Assembly (NCBI GenBank): GCA_963666205.1
Contig: OY762654.1
Coordinates: 1,003,220 to 1,067,219, forward strand
Length of the DNA: 64,000 nucleotides
Source of the DNA: Synergistales bacterium
GTDB lineage: Bacteria > Synergistota > Synergistia > Synergistales > JAFGMB01
Direction of reading: 5' to 3'
Positions within the stretch are counted from its first letter, which is position 1, and every line of letters begins with the position of its first letter. The translations under genes and the position numbers were made by a program. Below are positions 28,615 through 63,205 of the stretch, piece after piece. The notes beneath the pieces were generated by a model. It saw nothing but the letters and a program-made list of their open reading frames with translations. It did not search any database and was not told the origin of the DNA.

Positions 28615-29316
28615 GCCCTGTCCGGTAAACCGATTTTGGATTTTAGATTTTGGATTTTAGATTAGATCCATTGAGTTTCTCCGTGGTGAAAAGCTTCTGG
28701 TGCTGTTTTTTTCTTTTATCGTGCAAAATAGATCCATCATTTTGCACAGTAGAAAAAAGATTTGAGGGCTTCCTCTGCGACCTCTGCGGTAAACCGATTT
28801 TAGATTTTGGATTTTAGATTTTGGATTAGATCCATTGAGTTCCTCCGTGGTGAAAGGGTTTGGGTCCTGTTTTTTTCTTTTATCGTGCAAAATAGATCCA
28901 TCATTTTGCACAGTCGACAAAGTGGCCTATTTCTTGATCTCCTAGACCCGCGAAGCGTCCGCCCGTCCCCGGTTTATTCAGTGGTTTTTGGCGGATCTGC
29001 GGTAAAACAGCTTTTGATTTTGACCTGGTTTCCCTCCGTGCTACTCCGTGCCCTCCGTGGTGAAACAGGTTTTTGGGTTTACGGTTCTAATCGTGCAAAA
29101 TAGGTCCATCATTTTGCGCAGCACACCATTGTTTATGTTTTACATCTGCGTTACTCTGCGCAACCTCAGCGCTGAAAGTCCGCCACTACTTGGGTCTAAT
29201 GGTTTTATACGATGGTTTACGGCGGATCCTCTGCGGTAAACCGATTTTGGATTTTAGATTTTGGATTTTAGATTTTGGATTAGATCCATTGAGTTCCTCC
29301 GTGGTAAAACAGCTTT
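28615..29316. repeat. Mosaic repeat patch: M1/M2 blocks, GATTTTR heptamer arrays, three hairpin A copies, and modules 5 and 6.
   Basis: The module set is the same as at 41-56 kb. Heptamer arrays lie at 28631-28668, 28795-28832 and 29241-29285. Hairpin A copies lie at 28721-28747, 28885-28911 and 29093-29119. A CTCCGTG x3 block lies at 29030-29060. Confidence 0.9.
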
Positions 29317-40104: not shown

Positions 40105-41235
40105 TTGTCCACAGTAGCGCTGATGACGCAGAGAACTTACTCTGAAAAGGAACTTGAAGTCTCCATGGAAAAACTTCTCCAGGAACTTGGAGGGATGGAT
40201 CCCCTTATCAGGCCCGGAGACAGGGTTCTCCTCAAACCGAACATGCTCTCGGCCAGGCCTGTCGCAAAAAGAATAACCACCGATCCCATGGTGGTAAGGA
40301 TCATTGCCCGCATGGTACTGGACTGCGGAGCCAAACCCTTCATAGGTGACAGTCCCGGAATAGAACCCTTTCCCCAGGTGGCTAAAGCCTCAGGCATAGC
40401 GGAAATAGGAGAGGAACTGGGCATACCTGTGATCGAGCTGGATGATCCCGTTCCACTGAACAGGAATGACGATACAAGGTTCAGGAACATAGAAATATCC
40501 TCAAAGGTCATTCAGGCGGATAAAGTAATAAACATCCCAAAGCTCAAGACCCATGCCCAGATGCTTCTCACCCTCGGAGTAAAGAACCTTTTCGGAACAG
40601 TCGTAGCGCAGAGAAAGGCCGAGTGGCACTACAAGGTCGGGCTGGACAGGGACATCTTTGCCTCCCTTCACCTGGACATATACCATGCTATAAGACCTGT
40701 TATTACAATTCTTGACGGGATCTGGGGAATGGAAGGACACGGTCCCGGGAGCGGAACCCCCCGGAACTTCGGGATCCTTGCCGCTTCTGCAGACGCCGTA
40801 GCCCTGGACTGTTCCATCTGCAGAATACTCGGTGTACCCCTTGAGGACTTCCCCCTTTACCGGGAGGCAAAACGCAGAAATATAGGCCAGACAGACCTGG
40901 AGGAAGTTATTTACAGGGGAGATATGGATCCCCTCTCCGTAATTGAAGGAGTGGATATCCCCCGTCTCGACAGCCTTCACGTACTGCCCGGCTTCCTTAA
41001 GTTCTTTGGGAATACCATGATATCCCGTCCCGTCCAGGACCCGAACAGATGCATAGGGTGCGGGGAATGCGTCAGAATCTGCGCCGCCCATGCCATAAAG
41101 CTGGAGGGGAAAAGGCTTGACTACGATTACAGCAAATGCATCCGCTGCTTCTGCTGTCAGGAAGTATGCCCCATCAACGCCATAGGGTTCAAAAAGGGAT
41201 TCTTTCTGAAAGCGATGGAGATCTTCAGAAGGTAA
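40105..41235 (+). CDS. DUF362 domain protein with a C-terminal 2x[4Fe-4S] ferredoxin domain.
   Basis: VLLKPNML...DSPG...INIPKLKTH is DUF362-like. CIGCGECVRICAAHAI and CIRCFCCQEVCPINAI are ferredoxin motifs. The TTG start follows GGAGGG. Confidence 0.75.
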   Translation: MSTVALMTQRTYSEKELEVSMEKLLQELGGMDPLIRPGDRVLLKPNMLSARPVAKRITTDPMVVRIIARMVLDCGAKPFIGDSPGIEPFPQVAKASGIAEIGEELGIPVIELDDPVPLNRNDDTRFRNIEISSKVIQADKVINIPKLKTHAQMLLTLGVKNLFGTVVAQRKAEWHYKVGLDRDIFASLHLDIYHAIRPVITILDGIWGMEGHGPGSGTPRNFGILAASADAVALDCSICRILGVPLEDFPLYREAKRRNIGQTDLEEVIYRGDMDPLSVIEGVDIPRLDSLHVLPGFLKFFGNTMISRPVQDPNRCIGCGECVRICAAHAIKLEGKRLDYDYSKCIRCFCCQEVCPINAIGFKKGFFLKAMEIFRR

Positions 41236-41239
41236 CAAT

Positions 41240-41460
41240 GAATCGAAAATCTAAAATCCAAAATCCAAAATCGGTTAACCGCAGAGGGTCCGCCGTAAAC
41301 CATCGTATAAAACCATTAGACCCAAGTAGTGGCGGACTTTCAGCGCTGAGGTTTCGCAGAGTAACACGCAGGAAGACAAGAACCGTAGGGTGCTGCTTTA
41401 GCGCACCGAAACGACCAAGGTTGATAGATGTCACGAAATCGTAAATTTGTACCAGGAAGG
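41240..41460. repeat. Mosaic repeat patch in inverted orientation: heptamer array, M1, module 5, and a degenerate hairpin B.
   Basis: This is the reverse complement of the module string seen at 29141-29290 and 42829-43000. Confidence 0.9.
41351..41415. repeat. Left arm of the perfect 65-bp inverted repeat bracketing the DUF4143 ATPase gene.
   Basis: By manual reverse-complementing, it is identical to 42829-42893 (GTCGTTTCGGTGCGCTAAAGCAGCACCCTACGGTTCTTGTCTTCCTGCGTGTTACTCTGCGAAAC). Confidence 0.9.
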
Positions 41461-41646
41461 ACTTTCGGATCGGAGGGCACAGAGGAAAACATAAGACATA
41501 AAAACCGTAGACCTTTTCACCTATATCATGAAATCCCTGCCTTATTCATTGAATAAACATAATGTACATGATAATATTTAACCATACTTCAAAAATATCA
41601 TGATAATTTTGAAGTTGACTTAAAAATTATCATAAGAGGTACCTCG

Positions 41647-42825
41647 ATGATCAAAAGATATATTGCAGATATTATCAGGGAAGATCTCCAACATAAAATG
41701 GTGTTCATAGGCGGCCCAAGACAGGTAGGAAAAACTACCCTCGCAAAAATGATAGGTGAAGATTACCCCTCTTTCACCTATCTGAACTGGGATTTCCGCC
41801 CCCACAGAGAAGCTCTTGTAAGATCGACACTACCTGCTGAAACAAATCTCCTGATCCTTGACGAGATCCACAAATATCCTGATTGGAAATCTCTGATAAA
41901 GGGGATCTGGGACACCAGGACAGGCGACGAATCCATTCTGGTAACTGGAAGCTCCAAGCTGGACATTTACAGAAGAGGCGGGGATTCTCTCCTTGGCAGG
42001 TACCACTATTTTCGACTTTATCCTTTGACTCTGAAAGAACTGAATTCTCAAGCTCCCGTAGGCATGGATTTCCCGGATAAAGCTCCGAAACTTGATCTGG
42101 ACTTATCGGGGAAAGGATTGGACAAGCTCCTTTTTTTTGGAGGTTTTCCAGAACCTCTGCTTTCGGAAAGCGAAAGGGTATTGAAAAGGTGGCAAAGAGA
42201 AAGATTTGAAAGGGTCTTCAGAGACGATATCAGGGAAACAGAGAACATAAGATCTCTTGCACAGATAGAGCTTCTGGCAGCTATGCTTCCATCCAGGGTG
42301 ACATCACCCTTATCTCTGAATTCTCTGGCTGAAGACCTGGAAACCAGTTCAAACACAGTAAAAAGCTGGATGGATCTTCTTTGCAGAAATTATTTCACCT
42401 TTAAAATACCTCCATATCACAAGCGTCTTGAAAGGGCTCTCAAAAAAAGTTCTAAATACTATCTTTGGGACTGGTCCGAAATAAAGGATGAAGGTGCACG
42501 TTTTGAAAACCTTATGGCAGTTCATTTGTTGAAATATGCACATTTTATCCAGGACAGCCATGGAATTTCTGTTGAACTGTATTACCTCAGGGATACTGCT
42601 AAACGGGAAGTGGATTTTCTGCTGACTTGGCAAGACAAACCCTGGATTCTTGTCGAAACCAAGGTTAACCATGGTGATAGTTTAACCTCTCTGAACTATT
42701 TTGCAGATAAGCTTGGAGTTGATGAAAAATATGTAGTATGTCTGAATGATAAAAAAGATTACCTCGACAGGAACTCCGGCGTAAGGGTAATACCTGCAAG
42801 CAGATTTCTAATGTCCCTTGTGTGA
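41647..42825 (+). CDS. AAA+ ATPase with a C-terminal DUF4143 (AAA_14 + DUF4143 family).
   Basis: The Walker A is GGPRQVGKTT and the Walker B is LLILDEIH. The length is 392 aa and the RBS is AAGAGGT. Confidence 0.8.
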   Translation: MIKRYIADIIREDLQHKMVFIGGPRQVGKTTLAKMIGEDYPSFTYLNWDFRPHREALVRSTLPAETNLLILDEIHKYPDWKSLIKGIWDTRTGDESILVTGSSKLDIYRRGGDSLLGRYHYFRLYPLTLKELNSQAPVGMDFPDKAPKLDLDLSGKGLDKLLFFGGFPEPLLSESERVLKRWQRERFERVFRDDIRETENIRSLAQIELLAAMLPSRVTSPLSLNSLAEDLETSSNTVKSWMDLLCRNYFTFKIPPYHKRLERALKKSSKYYLWDWSEIKDEGARFENLMAVHLLKYAHFIQDSHGISVELYYLRDTAKREVDFLLTWQDKPWILVETKVNHGDSLTSLNYFADKLGVDEKYVVCLNDKKDYLDRNSGVRVIPASRFLMSLV

Positions 42826-43710
42826 TCAGTCGTTTCGGTGCGCTAAAGCAGCACCCTACGGTTCTTGTCTTCCTGCGTGTTACTCTGCGAAACATTTGCG
42901 CTTACAGTCCGCCTTAACGTCTTTGTAAGATGGTTTGCGGCGGATCCTCTGCGGTAAACCGATTTTAGATTTTGGATTTTAGATTTTGGATTAGATCCAT
43001 TGAGTTCCTCCGTGGTGAAAGGGTTTTAACGGTTCAGCTTTACGGTTCTTAGGTTTAACTCGTGCAAAATAGTATCACCGTTTTGCGCAGTAGAAAAAAG
43101 ATTTGAGGGCTTCCTCTGCGCTCTCTGCGCCCTCTGCGGTAAAATAGCTTTTGATTTTGACCTGGGTTCCCTCCGTGGTGAAAGGGTTTAACGGTTCAGC
43201 TTTACGGGTTTTCATGGCACAAAGCTGCGCTTTCGTGCCTCCACAAAACCTTTATCTCAGTAGCATCTGGTCCGAATGTACGAATCTTTCATCTTACTCC
43301 TGAAGAGTTACCCCAAGGGTTTATGTCTTCCTCTGCGCTCTCTGCGCCCTCTGCGGTAAAATAGCTTTTGACTTTGACCTGGGTTTCCCTCCGTGTACCT
43401 CCGTGCCCTCCGTGGTGAAAAAGTTTGGGGTGGATGTTATAGTTACTGGTTTTATTGTTTCCATGGCACAAATCTCCGATTTCGTGCCTCCCCAAAACCT
43501 TTATCTCAGTAGCATCTGGTCTGAATGGATGTTGACATGGAACTCAACTTTATCTTACCGGCCCGAAGGTCCGCCCGTCCACGGTTTGTTTAGATGGGTT
43601 TTGGCGGATTTCCTCTGTGCTCTCTGCGCCCTCTGCGGTAAAACAGCTTTTGACTTTGACCTGGTTTCCCTCCGTGGTACTCCGTGTCCTCCGTGGTGAA
43701 AAGGTTTGGG
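42826..43710. repeat. Mosaic repeat array: four consecutive M1-linker-M2-hairpin super-units.
   Basis: M1 blocks lie at about 42945, 43113, 43328 and 43610. M2 blocks lie at about 43005, 43168, 43385 and 43665. Hairpin A lies at 43062-43088. Hairpin B copies lie at 43216-43239 and 43465-43488. Confidence 0.9.
42829..42893. repeat. Right arm of the 65-bp perfect inverted repeat.
   Basis: It begins 3 nt after the ATPase stop codon. See 41351-41415. Confidence 0.9.
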
Positions 43711-45075
43711 TCAGGATCTCCAATAATCACATACCAGGTCTTCCAGCCTTACCAGGTTAATATCCTCTGATGATTCCAACCCCTTGAAACCTGACCTGGA
43801 GAATATATAAAATACCGTTCTGCTGCAATCCCTTCCGACTACTTTCCGGATCTTGTCAGCCTTACCTGCCAGATCCATGAAAACCCTTGAATTTGCCGGC
43901 TCACGAGTCCATTTACATTCACCAAGCACCAGGGTCTCGCCCTTTACAGCCACTATATCAACCTCATCCTCACCATCCCACCACCTGCCCATACCTTCAG
44001 GGTTTATCCAATCTTTCAGAACCTGCCTGCAGATCTTCTCCCAGGTAAAGGAAGTATGCATAGAAAGAGTGGATGAGATCTTTTCCTGGACATCAGACCC
44101 TCTCTCCCTATAGATAAGTTCCTGATCGTCCAGCAGATACCTGAAATAAAAACGCAGATACTCATCCTCGATGAAGTACAGGGGGATCTTTTTAGGTCTT
44201 TTCAGGGAGAAGGGAAGTTCCTTGCGGATCAGTCCAAGCTCAAGGAGATTCCTCAGGTAAGTTGAAATGTTCTGATGGGGAATACCAGTGATCTGTGCTA
44301 TTTCGGATGCCCTGGTCCTGCCCTTTGCAATTGTCCTCAGGATCGAAAAATATGAAGTTGGATCCTTTTTGAACTCCTCCATAACCAGAAAACGGCCCTC
44401 TTCCACTAGAAATTCACCAGGGCTCAGCATCGATTCCTTCAGTGCATTATTAAAAGAACCGTGTCCAGACATCTTCTTGAGATAAAGAGGAATTCCCCCA
44501 ACTGCAGAATATGTTTTTACCTGGTCTTCCATGTTCAGGTCAGGTAAAAATTTTCTTGCCTGCAGAAATCCCATAGGATCGATACGGTATTGCCCTGTTC
44601 TTCTGCCATATATGGGACTGCTCTCTGCCAGGGTGATTCTTTCCATCATGCCGATAAAGGAACCGCAAAGCACCATCATCACCGGCAGTTTACTGAATAC
44701 CTGATCCCACCATCTCTGAAAAAGGGAAAGAAAGGAATCATCCTTGATGGGAATATACTGAAATTCGTCCCATACGATAACCAGTTTTTCTCTGGATAAT
44801 TTGATCATCTTTTCCAGAAGGGAGAACATCTCATCCCATTTAGTGACTTCCAGAGACAAAGGCAGTTCTGCTTTTTCTTTAAGGGGAATAGAGAACCTGT
44901 TGATCAGCTGCTGCGGTTCAGACATATCAGCAGTCAGGAAAAGAGCTCCGGGAAATGTGTTCTCAAGGAGGAAAGTCTTCCCTACCCTTCTCCTGCCATA
45001 TATAACGACCAGCTCTGCATTTTCAGACCTGAACTTTTTTTCAAGAAATTCTTTCTCCTGTATCCGATCTATCAT
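43711..45075 (-). CDS. ATP-binding protein (archaeal-type ATPase domain + DUF234).
   Basis: The Walker A is YGRRRVGKTF and the Walker B is VIVWDEFQ. The C-terminal region is DUF234-like. The ATG at 45075 follows GGGGGTG. The maximal ORF extends to 45162. Confidence 0.8.
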   Translation of the reverse strand: MIDRIQEKEFLEKKFRSENAELVVIYGRRRVGKTFLLENTFPGALFLTADMSEPQQLINRFSIPLKEKAELPLSLEVTKWDEMFSLLEKMIKLSREKLVIVWDEFQYIPIKDDSFLSLFQRWWDQVFSKLPVMMVLCGSFIGMMERITLAESSPIYGRRTGQYRIDPMGFLQARKFLPDLNMEDQVKTYSAVGGIPLYLKKMSGHGSFNNALKESMLSPGEFLVEEGRFLVMEEFKKDPTSYFSILRTIAKGRTRASEIAQITGIPHQNISTYLRNLLELGLIRKELPFSLKRPKKIPLYFIEDEYLRFYFRYLLDDQELIYRERGSDVQEKISSTLSMHTSFTWEKICRQVLKDWINPEGMGRWWDGEDEVDIVAVKGETLVLGECKWTREPANSRVFMDLAGKADKIRKVVGRDCSRTVFYIFSRSGFKGLESSEDINLVRLEDLVCDYWRS

Positions 45076-45164
45076 ATGCGCACCCCCAAAATCAAAAAAT
45101 ACAGAAGATATATTCTGCAAATATATCTTCTGTATTTTAAGGGCTGCTCTTATAAATTGCAAAT

Positions 45165-45547
45165 AGTCCTTTCGGTGCGCTCTCTGCGGTAAACCAGCTT
45201 TTGCCTTAGGTTTTATGTTTTCCTCAGATATTCCTCCGTACCCTCCGCAGTAAAAGTGTCTACTGTTTTCAGGTTTTATGTTTCCCTCTGTGCCCTCCAG
45301 GTCTAATCTTTACCATGGCACAAAGCTGCGCTTTCGTGCCTCCACAAAACCTTAAAGTTAAGATGTAATCTATCTGAACTGTCAAAAAAGGAATAAATCC
45401 TGAATATTATGTCAAAGAAGTCTTGTTTTCCTCATGTTTTACCTCTGCGGTACTCTGCGTGACCCCTGCGCCCTCTGCGGTAAAACAGGTTTTGACTTTG
45501 ACCTGGGTTTCCCTCCGTGGTGAAAGGGTTTTAACGGTTCAGCTTTA
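45165..45547. repeat. Mosaic repeat patch.
   Basis: M1 blocks lie at about 45178 and about 45440-45485. A degenerate M2 lies at about 45230 and an M2 at about 45510. Hairpin B lies at 45317-45340. The terminal module TTTTAACGGTTCAGCTTTACGG overlaps the stop codon of the next gene. Confidence 0.9.
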
Positions 45548-47724: not shown

Positions 47725-47895
47725 AACAATTTTACCGCAGAGGACGCAGAGAACGCAGAGGAAAGCGTAACCCTGAGTGAACCATTTTTCTTTAACCTGC
47801 TGCGTATATATTTCCGAGTTCATCCGCTCAGACCTTATCCAACTTAGACTGAGGTTAATGGATGTCACATAATCATAGATTTGTGCCAGGAGAAA
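47725..47895. repeat. Inverted copy of the hairpin B-tail-M1 element (about 165 bp).
   Basis: The reverse complement aligns along its length with 51753-51925. Hairpin B lies at 47864-47887 and M1 at 47731-47761. Confidence 0.85.
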
Positions 47896-47930
47896 CTCTA
47901 GCCATAAATTCTGGCTGGTTACTGGATTTA

Positions 47931-48308
47931 CTACAGCCCGTTGGCAAATCGGGTTATACCATCCTTAAGTTTGACTACATTGAAATTAATAAGCAATCCT
48001 AGTTTCTTGCCGCTCAGTTTCAAGTAAGAAAGGATCTGAGCCTTATGTATATCCGTTATTTTTTCAACGGATTTAAGTTCAATAATAATCTCGTCCTCTA
48101 CAACCAGATCCAGACGATAACCCAAGTCTATTTTGACTTCATCATAAATCACAGGAAGAACTTTCTGGGACTCAACTTTAAAGCCTCTTTTATTTAATTC
48201 ATAACAAAGACAAGCTTCATATGAACTTTCGAGAAGACCCGGACCTAAAGCAGAATGTACTTTAACAGCGCTATCAATAATTTCTTTGCTTATCTCATTT
48301 ATCTCCAT
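47931..48308 (-). CDS. GxxExxY protein (small PD-(D/E)XK nuclease-superfamily protein).
   Basis: A 125-aa protein with GPGLLESSYEACLCYEL (the GxxExxY motif) and D...ELK core residues. It is a paralog of 55280..55657. Confidence 0.85.
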   Translation of the reverse strand: MEINEISKEIIDSAVKVHSALGPGLLESSYEACLCYELNKRGFKVESQKVLPVIYDEVKIDLGYRLDLVVEDEIIIELKSVEKITDIHKAQILSYLKLSGKKLGLLINFNVVKLKDGITRFANGL

Positions 48309-48384
48309 AGGTCTGAATACCCCCCAATTCAGTCATGACAAAACCCTAACCATTCTACAACAAAATTGTTTTTGGTTTTGCCTC

Positions 48385-48890
48385 TAAGTCGTGCAAAACC
48401 GAGTCTGGTTTTGCGCAGTAGGAAAAAGATTTGCGGGTTTCCTCTGCGCTCTCTGCGCCCTCTGCGGTAAAACAGGTTTGAGGGTAGATTTTATAGTTTC
48501 CGTTTTTATTGTTTCCATGGCATAAATCTACGATTTCATGCCATACATCAACTTTGAGGTAAAGTAGTATCTAGTCCGAACATTCTGAACCCAGAATTGG
48601 GAAAATCCCATATTCCGCAATGTTTTAAGCTTTTCCTCCGCGGTACTCTGCGCTCCCTCTGTGTCCTCTGCGGTAAAACAGGTTTGAGGGTAGATTTTAT
48701 AGTTTCCGTTTTTATTGTTTTCATGGCACAAATCTACGATTTCGAGCCTCCCCAAAACCTTTATCTTCGTAGGATATGGTCTGTCCGGACAAATATCACA
48801 TGTTATTCATGAACAGTTATACCAAGGTTTTACGCCTTCCTCCGTGGTAAAAGGGTTATAACGGTTCAGCTTCACGGGTTTTACTCTTGA
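48385..48890. repeat. Mosaic repeat patch.
   Basis: Hairpin A lies at 48391-48416. M1 blocks lie at about 48440 and about 48635. Hairpin B copies lie at 48519-48542 and 48725-48748. An M2 lies at about 48838. Confidence 0.9.
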
Positions 48891-48923: not shown

Positions 48924-49505
48924 TTATTTTACTCTCATTACAACTCCGCCATTGCCCCCAACATTTGCTGGATTTTCCGATGCTATAAATAAACTCTTCG
49001 AAGGATCATCAAGATTCTCGCTCAGGGAACCATCATAGATCCCGCTTTCGGGAGACATCCTTTCCAGCTGTTTTCTGATCGAATAATCCGCATAGGTATT
49101 AGTAACATTGGCTGCAACATAAATATGAACATCTGGAGTGGCATAGGAAGGATCGCTTCCCGGCCCGGAAACATAGATAAAGTACGGGTTCTTTGAAGCA
49201 TTATTCCAATCCTTTGGACCCGTTATACTGTGAGGTTCAGGTATACCCCTGTCCAGGTATTGGCTCAGGCTGTTTATGCTAATTACACCCCAACCCTGCT
49301 CACTCTGGGAAAACCACTGCTGATTATCAGCATAGTACATAACTACTGCAGTCTTGAGAACTTCCAGGTTTGAGACTATCTTTGTCGCCTCGCTCTTACT
49401 GGTCGCGCTTCCGATTGTGATCATAAGAGAACCTGAGAGAATGCCTATAATGATGATTACAATGAGGATCTCTATAAGGGAAAAACCTCTGCTGCGCTTT
49501 TTCAA
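48924..49505 (-). CDS. Prepilin-type N-terminal cleavage/methylation domain protein (type IV pilin / pseudopilin-like).
   Basis: MKKRSRG-FSLIEILIVIIIIGILSG is a class III signal sequence. The TTG start follows AGGGAGG. Confidence 0.8.
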   Translation of the reverse strand: MKKRSRGFSLIEILIVIIIIGILSGSLMITIGSATSKSEATKIVSNLEVLKTAVVMYYADNQQWFSQSEQGWGVISINSLSQYLDRGIPEPHSITGPKDWNNASKNPYFIYVSGPGSDPSYATPDVHIYVAANVTNTYADYSIRKQLERMSPESGIYDGSLSENLDDPSKSLFIASENPANVGGNGGVVMRVK

Positions 49506-50360: not shown

Positions 50361-50918
50361 TTACTTCAGCAGCCACACCAGCGGTAAAGCCAGCAGACCC
50401 ATCAGAGGGCTTACAGCCCCGGCGTTACAACCGCCGCCACCGCCACCACCGGAAGTCTCTTCTTCTGCATTTACAAGATAGACCTGGGAAGTTGAAAAAT
50501 ACAGAGAAGGATCTGTTATTGTGGCAACTCCATTCACGACCTCGATAAAATCATAATAATCAGAATGATTCTGGATCAATATACCATCGGGATCAAGACC
50601 GGTACCCCTCACATCAATGGTTACTGTTCCAACAGGCGTAGTATCGTAGACTGCTTCCACACCCGCAAGGACGACGATCGTATAAGTTCCGCTTACCGGC
50701 ATATTAATATGATCACTGGTCACGCTGGAACTTAAAATACAAGAGGCACAGGAGTCCGTATCTGGAGAAAATATGATAGTCCCTGGATCAATGGACGTGT
50801 AAATCTCCGTATCGACATGTCCAACATGGCCTATATCATGACCTACCACAGCCATACCTACCGACGCAAAAACAAGAACAAGTGCTGCAGAAACTGCAAA
50901 AAGAACAACTTTTTTCAT
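50361..50918 (-). CDS. Secreted protein with a C-terminal Gly-run/Cys/TM/basic sorting signal (Synerg-CTERM-like).
   Basis: The signal peptide is MKKVVLFAVSAALVLVFASVGMA. The C-terminus is ...EEETSGGGGGGGCNAGAVSPLMGLLALPLVWLLK. The RBS is GGAGGGGG. Confidence 0.6.
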   Translation of the reverse strand: MKKVVLFAVSAALVLVFASVGMAVVGHDIGHVGHVDTEIYTSIDPGTIIFSPDTDSCASCILSSSVTSDHINMPVSGTYTIVVLAGVEAVYDTTPVGTVTIDVRGTGLDPDGILIQNHSDYYDFIEVVNGVATITDPSLYFSTSQVYLVNAEEETSGGGGGGGCNAGAVSPLMGLLALPLVWLLK

Positions 50919-51444: not shown

Positions 51445-52217
51445 ACTTGGGTTCCCTCTGCGCTCTCTGCGCCCTCTGCGGTTAGCTTAGGGTTAATAGG
51501 GGTAAAAGGTTTACGGTTCAGGTTTACGGGACCAATCGTGCAAAATAGTTCCATCATTTTGCGCAGCATAACAAGGAGTGTTAAGGGCCGAATGTCCGGC
51601 CAACCCGGCTTTAAGTTTTTTAGGAAGATCTTTGACGGAGGTTTTTGGCGGGTTTCCTCTGCGGTAAAAGAAAGATACTGAATTTGTTTTTGACTTTGGT
51701 TTTATTGGTTAAGAGGTTTTCCTCTGTGACCTCTAGTTCGAAAGCACTACCTGGCACAAATCTACGATTTGGTGCCATACATCAACCTCAGTCTAAGTAG
51801 CATAAGATCTGAGTGGACGTAACATCGGAATAAACACGCAGTATATGGATAAAATGGTTTGACGGGTTTCCTCAGGGTCTACCTCTGCGAAACTCTGCGT
51901 AACCTCAGCGTCCTCTGCGGTAAAACAGCTTTTGATTTTGACCTGGTTTCCCTCCGTGTCCTCCGTGGTAGATAGGTTTTAGCGTTTTGGCTTTACGGGT
52001 TCCCATGGCACAAATCTCCGATTTTGTGCCTCCGGAAAAACTTGTTCACCAGGTTTTGTAAGTTTCAGGTTCTCGTTCTTAATCGTGAAAAATCTAGTCT
52101 GATTTTTCGCAGCATGTTTCTTAAATCATTTGGTCTCGTTTTCCTCTGCGCTTCCTCTGCGCTCTCTGCGCCCTCTGCGGTAAAATAGCTTTTGACTTTG
52201 ACCTGGTTTCCCCTCCT
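51445..52217. repeat. Mosaic repeat patch.
   Basis: M1 blocks lie at about 51455, 51655, 51880 and 52140. Hairpin A copies lie at 51538-51564 and 52085-52110. Hairpin B copies lie at 51753-51776 and 52007-52030. An M2 lies at about 51950. Confidence 0.9.
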
Positions 52218-52608: not shown

Positions 52609-54825
52609 GTGTCTAACGTGCATTTATGTTTTCGTCGTGGCATGGTATTTGCCATAGCCTTGTTCTTGTTACTGTTTTTATCCATACCATCCTTTGCAGC
52701 AGGTGAAGGTGTATCAGGAGTTACCGGACCATCCTCTGCCCCATCGGGGTCAACCGGCAGTGATGCCGGACCTGGAGGCATGGAAATAACCGGTCCAACC
52801 ATAGACGGTTCCATATTCACCCCCGACAACCAGGGTCCCGGCCAGATCGAGTTCCTGGACATGACAGGTTCCCAGGTACAGGACGCAACAGGACAGGTCC
52901 AGGCACCGGGCCAGCAGATGGGCGTTGATGACAGTAACAAAGACTACGTCTCGGGCGCCCTTCCGTCCGTTATCACCGATAAGCTTCCCCGTTTCGGATA
53001 TAACTTCTTCAGCAGACCCTCTACCGCCTTTGCACCCGTAAGGAATGTTCCGGTGGGACCCGATTACGTGGTCGGACCCGGTGACACCGTCCGCATCGAC
53101 ATCTGGGGGCTTGAAGAGGGCCATTACACCGTACCCGTTGACCGAAACGGTAACCTTTCCCTTCCCAGGGCAGGCGTTGTAGGTGTTACAGGCCTCACCT
53201 TCGACCAGGTGAAAATGGCCGTCACAAGTGCCTATTCCCGCTACTACAGCAATTTCCAGATAAATATAACCATGGGTCAGCTGAGGACCATAACCGTCTA
53301 CGTTGTTGGCCAGACCAACCGGCCAGGCGCCTATACCCTTTCATCCATGTCCACAGTGATCAATGCCCTTATCGCATCTGGAGGTCCCAGCTTTTCCGGA
53401 AGCCTGAGGAACATCCAGGTCAAACGCAACGAACGGATAGTGTCCCGGTTCGACGCCTATGAACTTCTCCTCCAGGGCAGCAAGAAAAAAGACATCCGCC
53501 TCATGGACGGCGACGTGCTCTTCATCCCCACCGTGGGTCCCCTGGTGGGCATTACCGGCGACATAAAGAACCCTGCCTACTACGAACTCAATGGGCAGGC
53601 AAGGATCTCCGATCTTGTGGAGATGGCGGGAGGGTTCACCAACCGCTACTTCAAGGGCCGGGTCCAGGTTGACCGCACCATGGGCAACGAATACCGCACA
53701 TCCTTCGAGAACGACCTCGCAGGGCTCAAGGAGAATCCTGCAAAGAACATACCCCTGGAGAACGGCGACCTCGTCAAGATCTACTCCGTTTCCGTCCAGG
53801 AATCCAAGATATACCTTTCCGGTGCCGTCGCCCGTCCGGGCCAGTACTCCATCCAGCTGGGCAGAACCAGGGTCGGCGATGTACTTCGCCGCGCAGGAGG
53901 CCTTCTCTACATGGCATCCAATGAGGGCGAGCTCACCCGGGTAAAGGTCACACAGGCCGGCCCCGAAACAAGCCGTTTCCGCTTCGACATATCAAAGGCC
54001 ATGGCCGGGGATCCCCAGAGCAACATGATCCTCGATGTCAACGACTACATAACCATCCGCACCGTACCCGACTGGACCCTCTACCGTACCGTAAGGGTAC
54101 AGGGAGAGGTGAAGTATCCCGGCGTATACACCATCCAGAAGGGCGAAAGGCTCACAGACCTCATCGAGCTTGCTGGAGGATACACGGATGAGTCTTTCCT
54201 TCCCGGTGCGACCTTCACTCGTGCCAGCGTACAGCGCAAGCAGCAGCAAAGGATCGACGAAATGATCGACCGCCTGGAGAAACAGCTTTACGGCGCATCC
54301 GTTGAAGGTACAGCAACAGCCCTCACAGAAGGGGATGCCCGCATGACCCAGATGGAGACCCAGCAGCGCCAGCGATTCCTCGACAGGCTCAGGGAAACAA
54401 AGGGAACGGGCCGCATAGTGGTGAAACTGCCCGAGAACCCCAGGATGCTCAAGGGAACACCCTATGATATAGAACTCGACCAGGGAGATACCCTGGTTAT
54501 TCCTAAAAGGCCCCAGACCGTACAGGTGGTGGGTTCCGTCTATAACCCCATGGCCTTCGTGTACCGTCCCGACCAGCCCTTCACATACTACGTGAAGCAG
54601 GCCGGCGGATATTCATACAATGCCGATACAAAGAGGATCTACATCATCAAGGCCGATGGAACGGCAACGAGGTCCTTTGTGAACAAGAAACCTGTGACCA
54701 TCGAAGATGGAGACAGCGTGATCGTGCCGGAGAAGATCGATGTCAAGGGCAAGCTGAGGGATACCAGGGACATCGTGGACATCGTGTACAAGGTCGCCGT
54801 CGGCGCCGCCGTGTTACTCGACTAA
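52609..54825 (+). CDS. Polysaccharide export protein (Wza-like Poly_export domain + multiple SLBB domains).
   Basis: A signal peptide is present. PRFGYNFF...VGPGDTVRIDIWG...VDRNGNLSLPRAGVVGVTGLT is the Poly_export motif, and it is followed by repeated SLBB-like units. The exact start is uncertain (52609-52642). Confidence 0.85.
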   Translation: MSNVHLCFRRGMVFAIALFLLLFLSIPSFAAGEGVSGVTGPSSAPSGSTGSDAGPGGMEITGPTIDGSIFTPDNQGPGQIEFLDMTGSQVQDATGQVQAPGQQMGVDDSNKDYVSGALPSVITDKLPRFGYNFFSRPSTAFAPVRNVPVGPDYVVGPGDTVRIDIWGLEEGHYTVPVDRNGNLSLPRAGVVGVTGLTFDQVKMAVTSAYSRYYSNFQINITMGQLRTITVYVVGQTNRPGAYTLSSMSTVINALIASGGPSFSGSLRNIQVKRNERIVSRFDAYELLLQGSKKKDIRLMDGDVLFIPTVGPLVGITGDIKNPAYYELNGQARISDLVEMAGGFTNRYFKGRVQVDRTMGNEYRTSFENDLAGLKENPAKNIPLENGDLVKIYSVSVQESKIYLSGAVARPGQYSIQLGRTRVGDVLRRAGGLLYMASNEGELTRVKVTQAGPETSRFRFDISKAMAGDPQSNMILDVNDYITIRTVPDWTLYRTVRVQGEVKYPGVYTIQKGERLTDLIELAGGYTDESFLPGATFTRASVQRKQQQRIDEMIDRLEKQLYGASVEGTATALTEGDARMTQMETQQRQRFLDRLRETKGTGRIVVKLPENPRMLKGTPYDIELDQGDTLVIPKRPQTVQVVGSVYNPMAFVYRPDQPFTYYVKQAGGYSYNADTKRIYIIKADGTATRSFVNKKPVTIEDGDSVIVPEKIDVKGKLRDTRDIVDIVYKVAVGAAVLLD

Positions 54826-54836
54826 AACCAAGAGCT

Positions 54837-55245
54837 GTTTTACCGCAGAGGTCGCAGAGAGCGCAGAGGAAACCGAAAGGCAGGCATAAAAATTTCGCTG
54901 TGTAGGTTTTTATTAATCTCCTGTTTTATACATGCATGACTTGATCCTACTAAGATAAAGGTTGATGTACTTTTGTGCCATGGGCATAAAGAAAATCATC
55001 AATTCTAAGAGCAAAACATGTAGTTACCTCAGAGGACGCATCGGAAAATTATAAAGAATGCAATGTTGTTTACTCTTTTGACCGTTTATTATTCTAGAAG
55101 GTTTTGGCGGATTTCATGTAGACAGGAAGTTCTAGGGGGCTAATCGTGAAAAATCTAGTCTGATTTTTCGCAGTAATACAGATTTTACAGGTTTAACGGT
55201 TTCCTCTGCGCTCTCTGCGACCTCTGCGGTTAGCTAAGGGGTTTA
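54837..55245. repeat. Mosaic repeat patch.
   Basis: An inverted M1 lies at 54837-54869, with a truncated hairpin B at about 54965-54980. The forward hairpin A-M1 unit lies at 55144-55232. Confidence 0.9.
55144..55232 (+). repeat. Left copy of the 89-bp direct repeat flanking GxxExxY gene 2.
   Basis: 88/89 identical, by manual comparison, to 55868-55956 (TCGTGAAAAATCTAGTCTGATTTTTCGCAGTAATACAGATTTTACAGGTTTAACGGTT[T/C]CCTCTGCGCTCTCTGCGACCTCTGCGGTTA). Confidence 0.9.
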
Positions 55246-55279
55246 GGTTTCACGGTCGAGAAGGGGTTTTATTCAATTT

Positions 55280-55657
55280 ATGGAAATTAATGAAATTAGC
55301 AAAACAATTATCGACAGTGCTTTCCAAGTTCACAAAGCATTAGGACCAGGTCTCCTCGAAAGTGCATATGAAGCCTGCCTCTGCTACGAACTCAAGAAAA
55401 GAGGATTTACAGTAGAATCCCAGAAAGTTCTCCCGATAATTTACGATGGACAACAAATTGATGTTGGTTATCGCCTGGATCTTCTTGTACAAGATCAGGT
55501 CATAGTAGAACTCAAATCTGTTGAACATATAAATGAGGTACATAAAGCACAGATACTCTCGTATCTCAAACTTGGTAATAAGAAACTCGGACTACTTATC
55601 AATTTCAACGTAGCCAAAATCAAGGACGGGATAACCCGTATCGTCAACGGTTTGTAG
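55280..55657 (+). CDS. GxxExxY protein (PD-(D/E)XK nuclease superfamily), paralog 2.
   Basis: A 125-aa protein with GPGLLESAYEACLCYEL. By hand alignment, about 78% of residues are identical to 47931..48308. Confidence 0.85.
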   Translation: MEINEISKTIIDSAFQVHKALGPGLLESAYEACLCYELKKRGFTVESQKVLPIIYDGQQIDVGYRLDLLVQDQVIVELKSVEHINEVHKAQILSYLKLGNKKLGLLINFNVAKIKDGITRIVNGL

Positions 55658-55744
55658 GTTTTTTCGTCTTATAATATCAAGGTTTTGATTTACAAAGAAA
55701 ATTGTTAATTAGGTTTTATCTAGTTATGCATATTTGAGGGTTTA

Positions 55745-55965
55745 GTCGGTCAAAATGGGTTGATCATTTTGACCAGTAGAGATTTTTATACAAAAAAGAT
55801 GTTTTTAGGTTTTCTCTGCGCTCTCTGCGGTTAGACAGGATTTAGACTTTAGGGTTGCCGGTTTTATTCGTGAAAAATCTAGTCTGATTTTTCGCAGTAA
55901 TACAGATTTTACAGGTTTAACGGTTCCCTCTGCGCTCTCTGCGACCTCTGCGGTTAAACAGTATT
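55745..55965. repeat. Mosaic repeat patch, including the right copy of the 89-bp direct repeat (55868-55956).
   Basis: A hairpin A variant lies at 55748-55774. An M1 lies at about 55812. A hairpin A lies at 55870-55895. An M1 lies at about 55925-55955. Confidence 0.9.
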
Positions 55966-55993
55966 TGATTTTAATAGATTTTGAGGGGTAAAC

Positions 55994-58792: not shown

Positions 58793-58833
58793 GACGTCGC
58801 CCTCAATTAATTAAGGCTACATGGTGAACTTAC

Positions 58834-59391
58834 TTGAATAAAAAAATTATAGATTTAAGTCAAGCTGGATATGGGAAATTTAAAAGGACGAGATCCAAAT
58901 GGATTGAGGCTTTATGGATTATAGTGGAATTTTGCTTTGTAACAAATCCCATACAAGTTTCAAGTAAATTACGTATTCTGCTTATCAGGATGTTTGGAGG
59001 AAAAATCGATAAAAATGTAATCATGAGGCCCAGAGTTCGGATCAAGTTTCCTTGGAATCTGGAAATCGGAAATAACTGCTGGATTGGTGAAGGTGTTTGG
59101 ATACATAACCAGGATAAGGTCTACATTGGCAATAATACAGTTATTTCACAAGAGGCATTTATAACAACTGGTTCCCATGATCATTACAAAACCATGGATT
59201 TGATCACAAAACCAGTCAGGATTGGTTCTGGTGTCTGGATAACCTCCAGAGCAATGATATTGCTAGGTGTTTCAATAGCTGATAATGCAATAATTACACC
59301 CAACAGTGTTGTACATCGAAACATAGAAAAAGCCGGAATTTATTGCGGAAATCCTGCTGTTTTGATAAAAGAGAGGAAGATCACAGATTAA
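58834..59391 (+). CDS. Hexapeptide-repeat O-acetyltransferase (WcaF-like).
   Basis: The pattern LRILLIRMFGGKIDKNVIMRPRVRIKFPWNLEIGNNCWIGEGVWI...TGSHD is characteristic of colanic-acid WcaF-type acetyltransferases. Confidence 0.8.
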   Translation: MNKKIIDLSQAGYGKFKRTRSKWIEALWIIVEFCFVTNPIQVSSKLRILLIRMFGGKIDKNVIMRPRVRIKFPWNLEIGNNCWIGEGVWIHNQDKVYIGNNTVISQEAFITTGSHDHYKTMDLITKPVRIGSGVWITSRAMILLGVSIADNAIITPNSVVHRNIEKAGIYCGNPAVLIKERKITD

Positions 59392-60634: not shown

Positions 60635-60787
60635 TTGTGATGGATACATAAATATAGATAAAAATGCAAATTATCCCTGCTAGGAATTGGTAACTTATTT
60701 CCCTAAAAGAATATGAATTGACCTTAGGTTTTACTATTTGTAAACACAAGATTTCTCGTAGTATTAAATTATTAGTATGAGAAAGGA

Positions 60788-61906: not shown

Positions 61907-62012
61907 AAGCTAAGTACAGAGAAAATAGGTTTTCAAGAACCTTTTGGATTATAACATTGATTGATTGATTGATTTCTTGAACAGTACCAAGAGATCGGAT
62001 TAATAAAATTGG

Positions 62013-63140: not shown

Positions 63141-63205
63141 CGCTGTCATAATCTCCCCCAAAAGGAACTTACCTAATCAATAGCAACATTAGGAGGATTT
63201 TGCTC

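What the first reader, a model, noticed from the sequence alone, without database searches (positions are those of the whole stretch)
41351..42893. DUF4143 AAA ATPase gene is bracketed by a perfect 65-bp inverted repeat (about 170-180 bp with degenerate extensions)
By manual reverse-complementing, 41351-41415 is exactly the reverse complement of 42829-42893. Outward from these cores, both arms continue with diverged but alignable module sequence. That sequence is ...GTCCGCC...GATGGTTTRCGGCGGAYCCTCTGCGGTWAACC followed by GATTTTR heptamers, covering 41240-41350 and 42894-43000.

The right arm starts 3 nt after the stop codon. The left arm lies about 230 nt upstream of the start, separated from it by a degenerate hairpin B and an AT-rich promoter-like tract.

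A single gene framed by long inverted repeats is the architecture of a transposon-like cassette or of an invertible segment. Here the arms are members of the general repeat family, so recombination between dispersed repeats could also have produced the arrangement.
Basis: seen in the sequence. Interest (0 to 1): 0.7.

Follow-up and report, generated by a model that had tools for sequence, protein, structure and literature searches.

The report
Strain-specific inverted repeat around ATPase gene
A candidate phage-defence ATPase gene really is framed by a perfect 65-base inverted repeat, but close relatives carry the same gene with one arm or none, so the frame is a young by-product of recombination among the genome's patchwork intergenic repeats rather than a transposon or a genetic switch.

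Summary
41351-41415 is the exact reverse complement of 42829-42893, and the arms continue outward at about 86% identity to about 175 nt.

The interpretation as a transposon-like cassette or invertible switch is not supported.
- The arms are mosaics of the repeat modules that fill the intergenic DNA at 28.6-29.3 kb and 41-56 kb.
- The gene (AAA_14 + DUF4143, PADLOC candidate PDC-S01) sits at the same site and in the same orientation in every related contig that reaches a flank.
- No transposase or recombinase lies nearby, and the repeat has no fixed outer ends or target duplication.
- About 28 homologous loci in other taxa show no such frame.

Across ten related contigs the near-identical cassette occurs with both arms, a left core only, a partial right core only, or no core. 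Six contigs have an extra SWIM-like gene downstream instead of a right arm.

Silent-site divergence of the cassette is about 2%, against 15-20% for the neighbouring gene. That indicates recent exchange of the cassette between lineages.

Best reading: a young, strain-specific rearrangement at a recombination-prone accessory locus.

Side observation: the commonest repeat module also brackets two GxxExxY genes here. Its exact 22-mer occurs in more than 120 unrelated metagenome contigs, which is unexplained.

The parts
41241..41350 (-). Outer part of the left arm: GATTTTR heptamer tract, GGTTAACCGCAGAGG motif and GTCCGCC...GGCGGAC hairpin. It is a copy of a general repeat module, inverted relative to almost all other copies in the window.
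   Evidence: Pairs with 42894-42992 at 87% over 78 nt plus an 11-nt indel. It is 95% identical to a third copy at 29150-29274. It begins 6 nt after the DUF362 stop codon.
41351..41415 (+). Left copy of the 65-nt core. The outer ~35 nt resemble the start of a CTCTGCG-type module. The inner ~30 nt carry the hairpin GGTGCTGC-TTTA-GCGCACC.
   Evidence: Exact reverse complement of 42829-42893. It is identical in L210 and L213, where no right copy exists, and has 1 mismatch in L004. It is absent from L003, L209, L211 and L214.
41416..41471 (.). Degenerate 'hairpin B' module between the left core and the conserved cassette.
   Evidence: 41417-41454 pairs with 43464-43501 at 74%. Similar copies lie at 51716-51788. 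This stretch is only 58% alignable to L003.
41472..41646 (+). Conserved 5' non-coding part of the cassette. It starts with a GGAGGGCACAGAGGAAAAC motif and includes a palindromic, AT-rich promoter/operator-like tract (41568-41633) and a ribosome-binding site.
   Evidence: 96.6% identical to L003. The palindrome is conserved in L003, L004, L005, L209 and L210. A promoter-like TTAACC-18-GATAAT lies at 41578-41607. 41472-41520 has an inverted partner at 45250-45298 (49 nt, 84%).
41647..42825 (+). Cargo gene: 392-aa AAA_14 + DUF4143 ATPase with Walker A GPRQVGKT and Walker B LILDE. It matches PADLOC candidate defence family PDC-S01.
   Evidence: Pfam hits 2.2e-25 and 3.1e-25. PADLOC PDC-S01 hit 1.3e-52. 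No solved relative by sequence. 392 aa in all 11 members of the 90% cluster.
42829..42893 (-). Right copy of the 65-nt core, starting 3 nt after the stop codon.
   Evidence: Exact reverse complement of the left core. Present in L004 and L005. Only its first ~29-32 nt are present in L003, with 4 mismatches. In the SWIM-allele contigs L209-L214 it is replaced from position 42831 onward by other sequence.
42894..42992 (+). Outer part of the right arm: a divergent GTCCGCC hairpin variant, CCTCTGCGGTAAACC and heptamers.
   Evidence: The right arms of L004 and L005 carry the left-arm variant of the hairpin instead, which shows patchwise exchange.
42993..43710 (+). Array of further repeat modules (CTCTGCG x3-GGTAAAA, CTCCGTG x3-GTGAAA, hairpins), all in '+' orientation, between the convergent ATPase genes.
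   Evidence: Direct-repeat families D1-D6 and module map. In L004 the first ~430 nt of this side are mirrored on the left.
43711..45162 (-). Neighbouring accessory gene: ATPase_2 + wHTH + DUF234 (PADLOC PDC-S27). It is part of the same variable, repeat-embedded locus.
   Evidence: Pfam and PADLOC 7.4e-51. Absent from L003, present in L004 and L005.
29150..29290 (+). Third copy of the outer-arm module, in right-arm orientation and not associated with the ATPase. It shows that the arms are drawn from the dispersed family.
   Evidence: 95.2% over 125 nt to 41241-41365. It diverges inward of the position equivalent to 41365.

Best explanation
The inverted repeat is a young, strain-specific structural variant with no demonstrated function of its own.

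The DUF4143 ATPase gene and its own promoter form a small accessory cassette (a candidate defence gene). The minimal shared unit is about 41480-42830. It lies in intergenic DNA packed with mosaic repeat modules. Those modules recombine with each other by deletion between direct copies, by patchwise conversion, and possibly by template switching.

In the window's clade, one such event left the same composite piece (the 65-nt core plus the adjacent module) on both sides of the gene in opposite orientation. The core is perfect because the event is recent, or because the arms still convert each other. It is not perfect because it serves as a transposon end or recombinase site.

The same repeats probably supply the homology by which the cassette is swapped between lineages.

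Shown: the anatomy, the mosaicism, the polymorphism of the arms among strains, and the low divergence of the cassette. Inferred: the recombination mechanism, the order of events, and the lack of function.
For: 1. The arms are built from family modules. The outer arm is 95% identical to 29150-29274, and the outer half of the core resembles the start of the CTCTGCG module.

2. Long inverted pairs of these modules are common, but only in the repeat-rich stretch at 41-56 kb. There are 17 pairs of at least 40 nt.

3. A census of the same cassette, 98% or more identical, in ten other contigs:
- both arms in L004;
- right arm in L005, with the left side unassembled;
- left core only in L210 and L213, two independent samples;
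- no core in L209, L211 and L214;
- only a 32-nt remnant of the right core in L003.
The gene is intact (392 aa) in all, so the repeat is dispensable.

4. The arm sequences show recombination.
- L004's left arm has 224 extra nt bounded by a 48-nt direct repeat, and the window has the deleted form.
- The patch TGAGGTTG is on the left arm in L004 but on the right arm in L005.
- The window's right arm has a divergent hairpin variant that the right arms of L004 and L005 lack.

5. The cassette is far less diverged than its neighbour. Third-position differences for ATPase versus DUF362 are 2.5% vs 20.2% (L003, p=6e-16), 2.0% vs 15.1% (L209), and 2.0% vs 19.6% (L210/L087). The non-coding promoter stretch is also 96.6% identical.

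6. Transposition or site-specific recombination finds no support. There is no transposase or recombinase nearby, no fixed termini, no target duplication, the same site and orientation everywhere, and no inverted-repeat frame in about 28 homologous loci of other taxa.
Against: - The core is invariant or differs at a single base (L004 left, L005 right) in the five arm copies available (window x2, L004 x2, L005) and identical in L210 and L213, although these genomes differ by 1.5-9% elsewhere. This could mean constraint rather than recency. For 65 nt at 5% divergence, P(no change) is only about 0.04 per pair.
- The only three places where the CTCTGCG...GGTAAAA-type modules (those matching the 42829-43710 array) lie in '-' orientation are the left flanks of three small PD-(D/E)XK-type genes: this ATPase and two GxxExxY genes. 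That hints at a systematic process rather than random rearrangement.
- L003 also has an inverted repeat around the gene, made of different modules (126 nt at 79%). Mirror symmetry may therefore be older than the core.
- The rest of the 2.95-Mb source genome and the sequencing reads could not be examined.
- Metagenome contigs can be strain chimeras, although the left-only state was seen in two independent samples.
Confidence: 0.68

Rival explanations
1. The arms are the two halves of a general cassette bracket. In this reading, palindromic CTCTGCG...GGTAAA elements act as recombination sites, or as carriers into whose centre small PD-(D/E)XK-type genes are inserted. Such genes include GxxExxY and the DUF4143 ATPase with or without its SWIM partner. 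The genes are then exchanged between lineages through the bracket. The 65-nt core would be a local elaboration of that bracket.
For: - Three small accessory genes in the window are each framed by inverted modules of the same polarity, with GGTAAA distal and TTTCCTCTGCG proximal: 41241-42992, 47730-48472 and 54818-55978.
- Two of these cassettes are about 98%-identity islands against L003, on an 83-94% backbone.
- In L209 a 24-nt inverted pair of the same motif frames ATPase plus the SWIM gene.
- In unrelated metagenome contigs the same arm type frames GxxExxY genes at 430-530 nt spacing, and also occurs as 'empty' hairpins.
- The third cassette is missing from L003, while the left arm remains.
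Against: - No enzyme for such a process is identified.
- DUF4143 homologues elsewhere lack the bracket.
- Most copies of the 22-mer in metagenomes are single arms next to ordinary, unrelated genes.
- No clean filled-versus-empty site pair was found.
- Three cases in one window is a small sample.
- Homologous recombination in shared repeats explains the identity islands without any dedicated system.
Confidence: 0.14
2. The repeat works at the RNA level. Transcripts reading through from DUF362 contain both arms, which pair into a duplex of 65 bp or more enclosing the ATPase ORF. RNase III cleavage of that stem would separate, silence or stabilise the ATPase message, in the way inverted repeats direct excision of intervening sequences from 23S rRNA. 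The 23S analogy is from my own knowledge.
For: The arms co-fold at -268 kcal/mol. No terminator-like site lies between DUF362 and the ATPase, or anywhere in 41100-43800. The right arm starts 3 nt after the stop codon and contains a hairpin.
Against: - The gene has its own conserved promoter-like tract downstream of the left arm, so its normal transcript would lack the left arm.
- Most relatives express the same gene without one or both arms.
- No expression data are available.
- The terminator scan covers only canonical intrinsic terminators.
Confidence: 0.08
3. The segment 41416-42828 is invertible. Recombination between the arms, either RecA-dependent or by a recombinase encoded elsewhere, flips the gene. 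This would change its exposure to read-through or antisense transcription and give phase-variable expression of a defence gene.
For: - 65 nt of perfect identity (208 nt at 97% in L004) is enough for homologous recombination.
- The TGAGGTTG/AAATGTTT patch has changed sides between L004 and L005, as expected from exchange between arms.
- The two GxxExxY genes lie in opposite orientation relative to equivalent brackets.
Against: - Only one orientation is seen in all contigs that reach a flank: window, L003, L004, L209 and L005.
- No invertase or integrase lies within about 10 kb.
- The promoter lies inside the segment, so flipping would not switch it off.
- The repeat is absent from most strains.
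Confidence: 0.06
4. The unit is a non-autonomous mobile cassette: a passenger gene between terminal inverted repeats, moved in trans by a transposase encoded elsewhere (MIC- or MITE-like).
For: The architecture is a single gene between long inverted repeats drawn from a dispersed family. The cassette has been exchanged recently between lineages.
Against: - The site is the same in all relatives.
- There is a single copy in the L003 genome.
- The core is absent from 185,579 representative genomes and from the metagenome collection.
- The outer ends are variable and no target duplication exists.
- The region of high identity between lineages (41472/41480-42830/42857) excludes most of the arms.
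Confidence: 0.04

Closest known systems
Mosaic intergenic repeat families such as BIMEs of enterobacteria and BOX elements of pneumococci (from my own knowledge; not tested against their sequences)
   Same: The repeats are confined to intergenic DNA. They are built from sub-modules that occur in different combinations and orientations, many with hairpin potential. They vary between close strains through gain, loss and exchange of modules.
   Different: The sequences are unrelated. Modules here consist of tandem 7-10-nt units (GATTTTR; CTCTGCG; CTCCGTG) and reach several hundred nt per spacer. No Rfam family matches them. One module's 22-mer is shared with many unrelated metagenomes.
REPIN-RAYT systems: a single-copy IS200-like tyrosine transposase gene flanked by the genome's own REP/REPIN repeats (PMC3337134)
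   Same: A single-copy gene is flanked by copies of the genome's dispersed repeat family in inverted orientation. The gene stays at one chromosomal site.
   Different: The framed gene is an AAA ATPase with a PD-(D/E)XK-type DUF4143 domain, not an HUH/Y1 transposase. The repeats are long mosaics rather than 20-40-nt palindromes. The frame is missing in most close relatives. RAYTs are described as mostly vertically inherited, whereas this cassette shows recent exchange between lineages.
Transposons, mobile insertion cassettes and MITEs with terminal inverted repeats
   Same: One gene lies between long inverted repeats.
   Different: There is no transposase, no fixed termini, no target-site duplication and no second copy. 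The position is conserved.
Large inverted repeats that expand, contract and homogenise by arm-to-arm conversion, as in the plastid genome IR and sex-chromosome palindromes (analogy from my own knowledge)
   Same: The arms within a genome are near-identical while their length and boundaries differ between relatives: 175 nt in the window and about 430 nt in L004. Patches move between arms.
   Different: The scale is hundreds of nt rather than kb to Mb. The arms are drawn from a dispersed family, so other copies can also act as donors. Conversion is inferred here, not shown.
PADLOC phage defence candidates PDC-S01 and PDC-S27 (10.1101/2024.01.29.577857; PMC12988326)
   Same: The framed ATPase matches PDC-S01 models (1.3e-52) and its neighbour matches PDC-S27 (7.4e-51). 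Both are ATPase plus PD-(D/E)XK fusions, as described for these candidates.
   Different: These are untested candidates. Nothing in the sources I read mentions flanking inverted repeats, and homologues elsewhere lack them.

Membership tests
Transposon / insertion sequence / mobile insertion cassette | Encodes a transposase, or has terminal repeats matching an IS whose transposase acts in trans | tested here: not met
   The gene has only AAA_14 + DUF4143. No transposase or integrase family appears among called genes within about 10 kb in L003, L004 and L005. An IS elsewhere in the genome could not be searched.
Transposon / insertion sequence / mobile insertion cassette | Fixed outer termini flanked by a target-site duplication | tested here: not met
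   The outer limit of the repeat differs: about 175 nt in the window and about 430 nt in L004. In both it runs up to the DUF362 stop codon. No direct repeat lies at the outer edges.
Transposon / insertion sequence / mobile insertion cassette | Several copies or variable genomic position | tested here: not met
   The site next to DUF362 is the same in the window, L003, L004 and L209. Only one copy of 98% or more exists in the L003 genome. The core 24-mer is absent from genome contigs and metagenome contigs.
Programmed invertible segment (phase-variation inverton) | Inverted repeats bounding the segment | tested here: met
   65 nt perfect, about 175 nt in all.
Programmed invertible segment (phase-variation inverton) | Site-specific recombinase gene adjacent | tested here: not met
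   None among the genes within about 10 kb.
Programmed invertible segment (phase-variation inverton) | Both orientations present in populations | tested here: inconclusive
   Only one orientation is seen in five assemblies that reach a flank. These are consensus assemblies, and no reads were available.
Programmed invertible segment (phase-variation inverton) | Flipping separates a promoter from its gene | tested here: not met
   The conserved promoter/operator-like tract 41568-41633 lies inside the segment with the gene.
REPIN-RAYT system (PMC3337134) | The flanked gene is an IS200-like tyrosine (HUH/Y1) transposase of about 500 bp | tested here: not met
   Pfam gives AAA_14 + DUF4143 and the gene is 1179 bp.
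REPIN-RAYT system (PMC3337134) | The gene is flanked by the genome's own dispersed repeats in inverted orientation and is single-copy | tested here: met
   Searches show the flanking repeats. A single high-identity copy exists in the L003 genome. The source genome outside the window was not searchable.
Mosaic intergenic repeats (BIME/BOX-like) | Confined to intergenic DNA and composed of sub-modules in variable combination and orientation | tested here: met
   The repeat blocks at 28.6-29.3 kb and 41.2-56 kb all lie between ORFs. The module composition of the same spacer differs among the window, L003, L004, L005, L209, L210 and L213.
Mosaic intergenic repeats (BIME/BOX-like) | High copy number across the genome | not testable with these tools
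   Only the 64-kb window and flanks of 10 kb or less are available. About 11 repeat-bearing spacers lie in the window.
PADLOC PDC-S01 candidate defence gene | The protein matches PDC-S01 models and has the ATPase + PD-(D/E)XK architecture | tested here: met
   PDLC04790 hit at 1.3e-52 over residues 1-387. AAA_14 + DUF4143. DUF4143 is listed in the PD-(D/E)XK superfamily (PMC3424549).
PADLOC PDC-S01 candidate defence gene | Protects against phage | not testable with these tools
   The literature read describes PDC systems as awaiting validation.

The most novel reading that the evidence does not exclude
The CTCTGCG...GGTAAAA palindromic modules may be the arms of a widespread, undescribed cassette bracket. 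In this reading, small nuclease-family or defence genes (GxxExxY, the DUF4143/PDC-S01 ATPase with or without its SWIM partner) sit in the centre of the palindrome. They would be gained, lost, flipped and passed between lineages through the arms. GxxExxY, a PD-(D/E)XK protein, could be the enzyme that acts on the arms. The 65-nt perfect repeat would then be a fresh product of that machinery rather than of general recombination.
Probability: 0.12. Interest if true: 0.75.

Novelty: new member of a known kind. Interest (0 to 1): 0.33.

Why it matters
The repeat itself is a case study, not a new system. It shows how dense mosaic intergenic repeats can create long perfect inverted repeats around an accessory gene within a clade that differs by less than 2%. 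It also shows how such repeats break short-read assemblies exactly at the arms.

Two points are more useful.
1. The candidate defence gene PDC-S01 behaves here as a discrete cassette (promoter plus gene, about 1.35 kb). It has swept across lineages that differ by 7-9% at the neighbouring gene, and its downstream partner varies: a SWIM-like gene or an inverted repeat. That gives a natural experiment on how single-gene defence candidates spread by recombination in shared repeats.
2. One repeat module is shared as an exact 22-mer with many unrelated environmental bacteria and repeatedly frames GxxExxY genes. I found no description of this in the literature, and it deserves a systematic census.

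Tried and rejected
- Core 24-mer in genome contigs and metagenome contigs: no hits. Other genes framed by the same core could therefore not be found outside the clade. The source genome is not in the representative collection.
- Empty-site search through contigs that carry DUF362: they simply end at the left arm, at assembly breaks.
- Family-wide test for inverted-repeat frames around DUF4143 homologues: negative in about 28 loci. I rejected the idea that the frame is a property of the gene family.
- Orientation of modules as a function of transcription direction: inconsistent across the 11 spacers. Rejected.
- Rfam at gathering and permissive thresholds: nothing on the arms or arrays.
- Literature searches for the repeat strings, for GxxExxY and for DUF4143 with inverted repeats: nothing relevant beyond the PD-(D/E)XK classification.
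- Filled-versus-empty comparison for the second GxxExxY cassette against L003: the spacer is rearranged, not a clean empty site.
- Unbiased check of GxxExxY flanks in loci not selected through the repeat: no GxxExxY genes there, so no test was possible.
- Genes next to the 22-mer in metagenomes: heterogeneous, and only GxxExxY recurs.
- Integron cassette or attC: considered and dropped, because there is no integrase and the repeats lie on both sides of the gene.
- Structure prediction and deep homology searches of the ATPase were not run. The question was the repeat, and Pfam and PADLOC already placed the protein.
Full report
**1. The observation**

The window sequence 41351-41415 is the exact reverse complement of 42829-42893, and the perfect match cannot be extended by a single base in either direction. 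The repeat finder reports 41331-41415/42829-42913 (85 nt, 94%) and 41241-41318/42915-42992 (78 nt, 87%). blastn joins them into 175 nt at 85.7%, with an 11-nt indel in the GTCCGCC...GGCGGAC hairpin.

The ORF 41647-42825 (392 aa) carries AAA_14 and DUF4143. Its stop codon lies 3 nt before the right arm, and the left core ends 231 nt before the ATG. A chance origin is excluded: about 4e-33 perfect 65-nt inverted pairs are expected in 3.3 kb, and a 24-mer from the core occurs only at the arms even with three mismatches allowed. An independent assembly of a close relative (L004) has both arms, so the repeat is not an assembly artefact.

**2. What the arms are made of**

The window comes from a bacterium of the Synergistota.
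- A protein at 50361-50918 ends in a Synerg-CTERM sorting signal.
- The closest public genome is titled 'MAG: Acetomicrobium hydrogeniformans'.

Self-comparison shows repeats only in intergenic DNA at 28.6-29.3 kb and in nearly every spacer between 41.2 and 56 kb. They are mosaics of modules:
- GATTTTR heptamer tracts;
- three tandem CTCTGCG units ending in GGTAAAA;
- three tandem CTCCGTG units ending in GTGAAA;
- several hairpins.

The outer arm 41241-41365 is 95% identical to a copy at 29150-29274, which then runs into a different hairpin. The outer half of the core resembles the start of the CTCTGCG module (family D8). The gene-proximal ~30 nt, containing the hairpin GGTGCTGC-TTTA-GCGCACC, are unique to the two arms.

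Inverted pairs of modules of at least 40 nt are frequent in this stretch (17 pairs). The ATPase frame is the longest of them and the only one with a long perfect core.

**3. Relatives**

The 90% cluster of the ATPase has 11 members, and I retrieved the contigs of all of them. Where a flank is reached, the gene lies at the same place and in the same orientation, directly after the DUF362/4Fe-4S gene (window, L003, L004, L209). In L005 it is convergent with the DUF234 ATPase, as in the window. No transposase, integrase or invertase is among the neighbouring genes.

The state of the arms differs between contigs:

| Contig(s) | Arm state | Other features |
|---|---|---|
| Window | both arms | |
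| L004 | both arms, about 430 nt (208 nt at 97% + 229 nt at 90%) | |
| L005 | right arm | contig starts inside the left spacer |
| L210, L213 (different samples) | left core only, 0 mismatches | SWIM-like gene downstream |
| L209, L211, L214 | no core on either side | SWIM-like gene downstream |
| L212 | no right core; left side not assembled | SWIM-like gene downstream |
| L003 | first ~32 nt of the right core only (4 mismatches); no left core | surrounded by a weaker inverted repeat of other modules (126 nt at 79%) |

In the six contigs L209-L214 the sequence departs from the window exactly after 42830 (TGATCAGT|). A 312-aa gene with a weak SWIM zinc-finger match follows 119 nt downstream. 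The ATPase is intact in every case.

**4. Evidence for recombination**

Aligning the arms shows three things.
- The window's left arm is the product of a deletion between two 48-nt direct repeats that are both still present in L004.
- A patch (TGAGGTTG versus AAATGTTT) lies on the left arm in L004 and on the right arm in L005.
- The window's right arm carries a divergent variant of the GTCCGCC hairpin, whereas the right arms of L004 and L005 carry the left-arm variant.

L210 and L213 join the left core to yet other modules. The Logan contigs with the window's exact protein end 30 nt into the left core and 2 nt into the right core. The latter is the point where the SWIM allele diverges. I infer, without proof, that both alleles coexist in those samples.

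**5. The cassette moves between lineages**

Against L003 the ATPase coding sequence differs at 18 of 1179 sites (10 third positions). The adjacent DUF362 gene differs at 101 of 1131 sites (76 third positions). The 175-nt non-coding stretch upstream of the ATG is 96.6% identical. The same contrast holds for L209 and for L210/L087, with Fisher p between 1e-11 and 1e-16.

The high-identity tract runs from 41472-41480 to 42830-42857. It covers the promoter, the gene and at most the first 29 nt of the right core, but not the arms. Because silent sites and non-coding DNA are equally affected, recent exchange between lineages is the simplest explanation. Use of the surrounding shared repeats as homology for that exchange is inferred.

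A second island of 98% identity against L003 (47723-48537) is the first GxxExxY cassette.

**6. The gene**

PADLOC models place the ATPase in candidate defence family PDC-S01 (1.3e-52) and the neighbouring DUF234 ATPase in PDC-S27 (7.4e-51). Both are described as untested candidates found by 'guilt by embedding', with ATPase domains fused to PD-(D/E)XK domains. DUF4143, DUF234 and PDDEXK_3 are all listed in the PD-(D/E)XK superfamily with unknown function. No solved structure is detectable by sequence.

Homologues of 51% identity or less in about 28 other taxa have no flanking inverted repeat; the best E-value is 0.004. The frame is therefore not a property of the gene family.

**7. Mechanism**

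I commit to the following explanation, with confidence about 0.68. The repeat is a recent rearrangement product at a recombination-prone accessory locus. Either arm may be the copy: the left-only state in L210 and L213 and the right remnant in L003 leave the direction open. The junction TGATCA|GT shares only 2 nt with the SWIM allele, which fits illegitimate joining or template switching, but this is inference.

The repeat may have consequences. These include occasional RecA-dependent flipping, a very stable RNA duplex (-268 kcal/mol) if DUF362 read-through occurs, and assembly breaks. Its absence from most carriers of the same gene argues against a required role.

Rivals, with my confidence in each:
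- a general cassette bracket: 0.14;
- an RNA-level stem: 0.08;
- an invertible segment: 0.06;
- a trans-mobilised cassette: 0.04.

**8. Comparison with known systems**

The architecture recalls RAYT genes flanked by REPINs. Membership fails on the defining feature, because the framed gene is not an HUH/Y1 transposase, and the frame is not conserved. Transposon and inverton membership fail on several tested features (see the membership table).

The arms fit the general kind 'mosaic intergenic repeats'. The length changes and patch exchange between arms resemble the behaviour of large inverted repeats that homogenise by conversion. Both comparisons rest on my own knowledge.

**9. Side observation that remains unexplained**

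The only three places where modules matching the 42829-43710 array (the CTCTGCG...GGTAAAA type) lie in '-' orientation are the left flanks of this ATPase and of two GxxExxY (TIGR04256/PDDEXK_3) genes. Each of these genes is thereby framed with the same polarity.

The 22-mer CTCTGCGCCCTCTGCGGTAAAA from that module has exact copies in more than 120 contigs from very different metagenomes and in one viral contig. There it forms local hairpins, stands alone next to unrelated genes, or frames GxxExxY genes at 430-530 nt. In 556 kb of loci not chosen through the repeat there are no GxxExxY genes and almost no such motifs. I found no description of this in the searchable literature or in Rfam.

This leaves room for a more novel reading, to which I give a probability of about 0.12.

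**10. Verdict**

The feature is real and the description accurate. The transposon and switch readings are not supported. The ordinary explanation, recombination among dispersed repeats, is well supported by comparison with ten related contigs.

Interest is modest for the finding itself (0.33). The recombining defence-candidate cassette and the widely shared repeat module are the parts worth following.

Noticed in passing
window 47730-48472 and 54818-55978: Two 125-aa GxxExxY (TIGR04256 / PDDEXK_3) genes (47931-48308 on the - strand, 55280-55657 on the + strand) are each framed by inverted CTCTGCG...GGTAAAA modules: 35 nt at 94% and 58 nt at 86%. A perfect 34-nt pair also lies at 54842-54875/55197-55230. 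The first cassette is a 98%-identity island against L003. The second is missing from L003, although the left arm remains there.
   Followed up: partly
window 43123-43144, 43340-43361 and other copies; loci L088-L208: The 22-mer CTCTGCGCCCTCTGCGGTAAAA of the commonest repeat module occurs exactly in more than 120 contigs from unrelated metagenomes (soil, Antarctic lake mats, sludge) and in one IMG/VR contig. It is always intergenic. It sometimes forms a hairpin with an inverted partner, and sometimes frames a GxxExxY gene. No literature or Rfam family was found.
   Followed up: partly
L209 4778-5716; also L210, L211, L212, L213, L214: In six related contigs the same ATPase is followed, 119 nt downstream, by a 312-aa gene with a weak SWIM zinc-finger match (CxCx9CxH; Pfam E=0.012). 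The window has the right arm at that position instead. ATPase plus SWIM-like protein may be the original two-gene unit. In L209 the locus continues into a gene that looks, by my own reading of its translated start, like an electron-transfer flavoprotein beta subunit, rather than into the polysaccharide genes.
   Followed up: partly
window 43711-45162 (- strand): The neighbouring ATPase_2 + wHTH + DUF234 gene (PADLOC PDC-S27, 7e-51) is present in L004 and L005 but absent from L003. It is flanked by repeat arrays in direct orientation, so it is a presence/absence polymorphism probably mediated by the repeats.
   Followed up: partly
window 41568-41633: A near-perfect palindrome (33-nt arms, 82%, no spacer) is made of TATCATGATAAT-like units and overlaps a promoter-like TTAACC-18-GATAAT just upstream of the ATPase start codon. 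It is conserved in all related contigs and looks like an operator for a dimeric regulator.
   Followed up: no
window 41472-41520 and 45250-45298: A 49-nt inverted pair (84%) encloses both ATPase genes. Its left member coincides with the left end of the tract that is highly conserved between lineages.
   Followed up: no
L001 and L002 (= window 41386-42830 and 41480-42830): Logan contigs with the window's exact protein stop 2 nt into the right core, which is exactly where the SWIM allele diverges. One stops at 41480, where L209 diverges. This suggests that both alleles coexist in those samples.
   Followed up: no
window 647-684 (- strand): A SECIS_4 element just reaches the Rfam gathering score (38.4 vs 38 bits). 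It lies directly downstream of the ORF 685-1731 on the - strand, so a selenoprotein gene may read through a UGA codon there.
   Followed up: no
window 50361-50918 (- strand) and 48924-49505 (- strand): A 185-aa protein with a Synerg-CTERM sorting signal and a 193-aa protein with an N-terminal methylation (pilin-like) motif each sit between repeat arrays, inside a polysaccharide-export locus (YjbH, Wza-like, Wzz-like).
   Followed up: no
window 58001-64000: G+C content falls to 33-37%, against 45-52% elsewhere in the window. This lies downstream of the Wzz-like gene and may be a horizontally acquired polysaccharide gene block.
   Followed up: no
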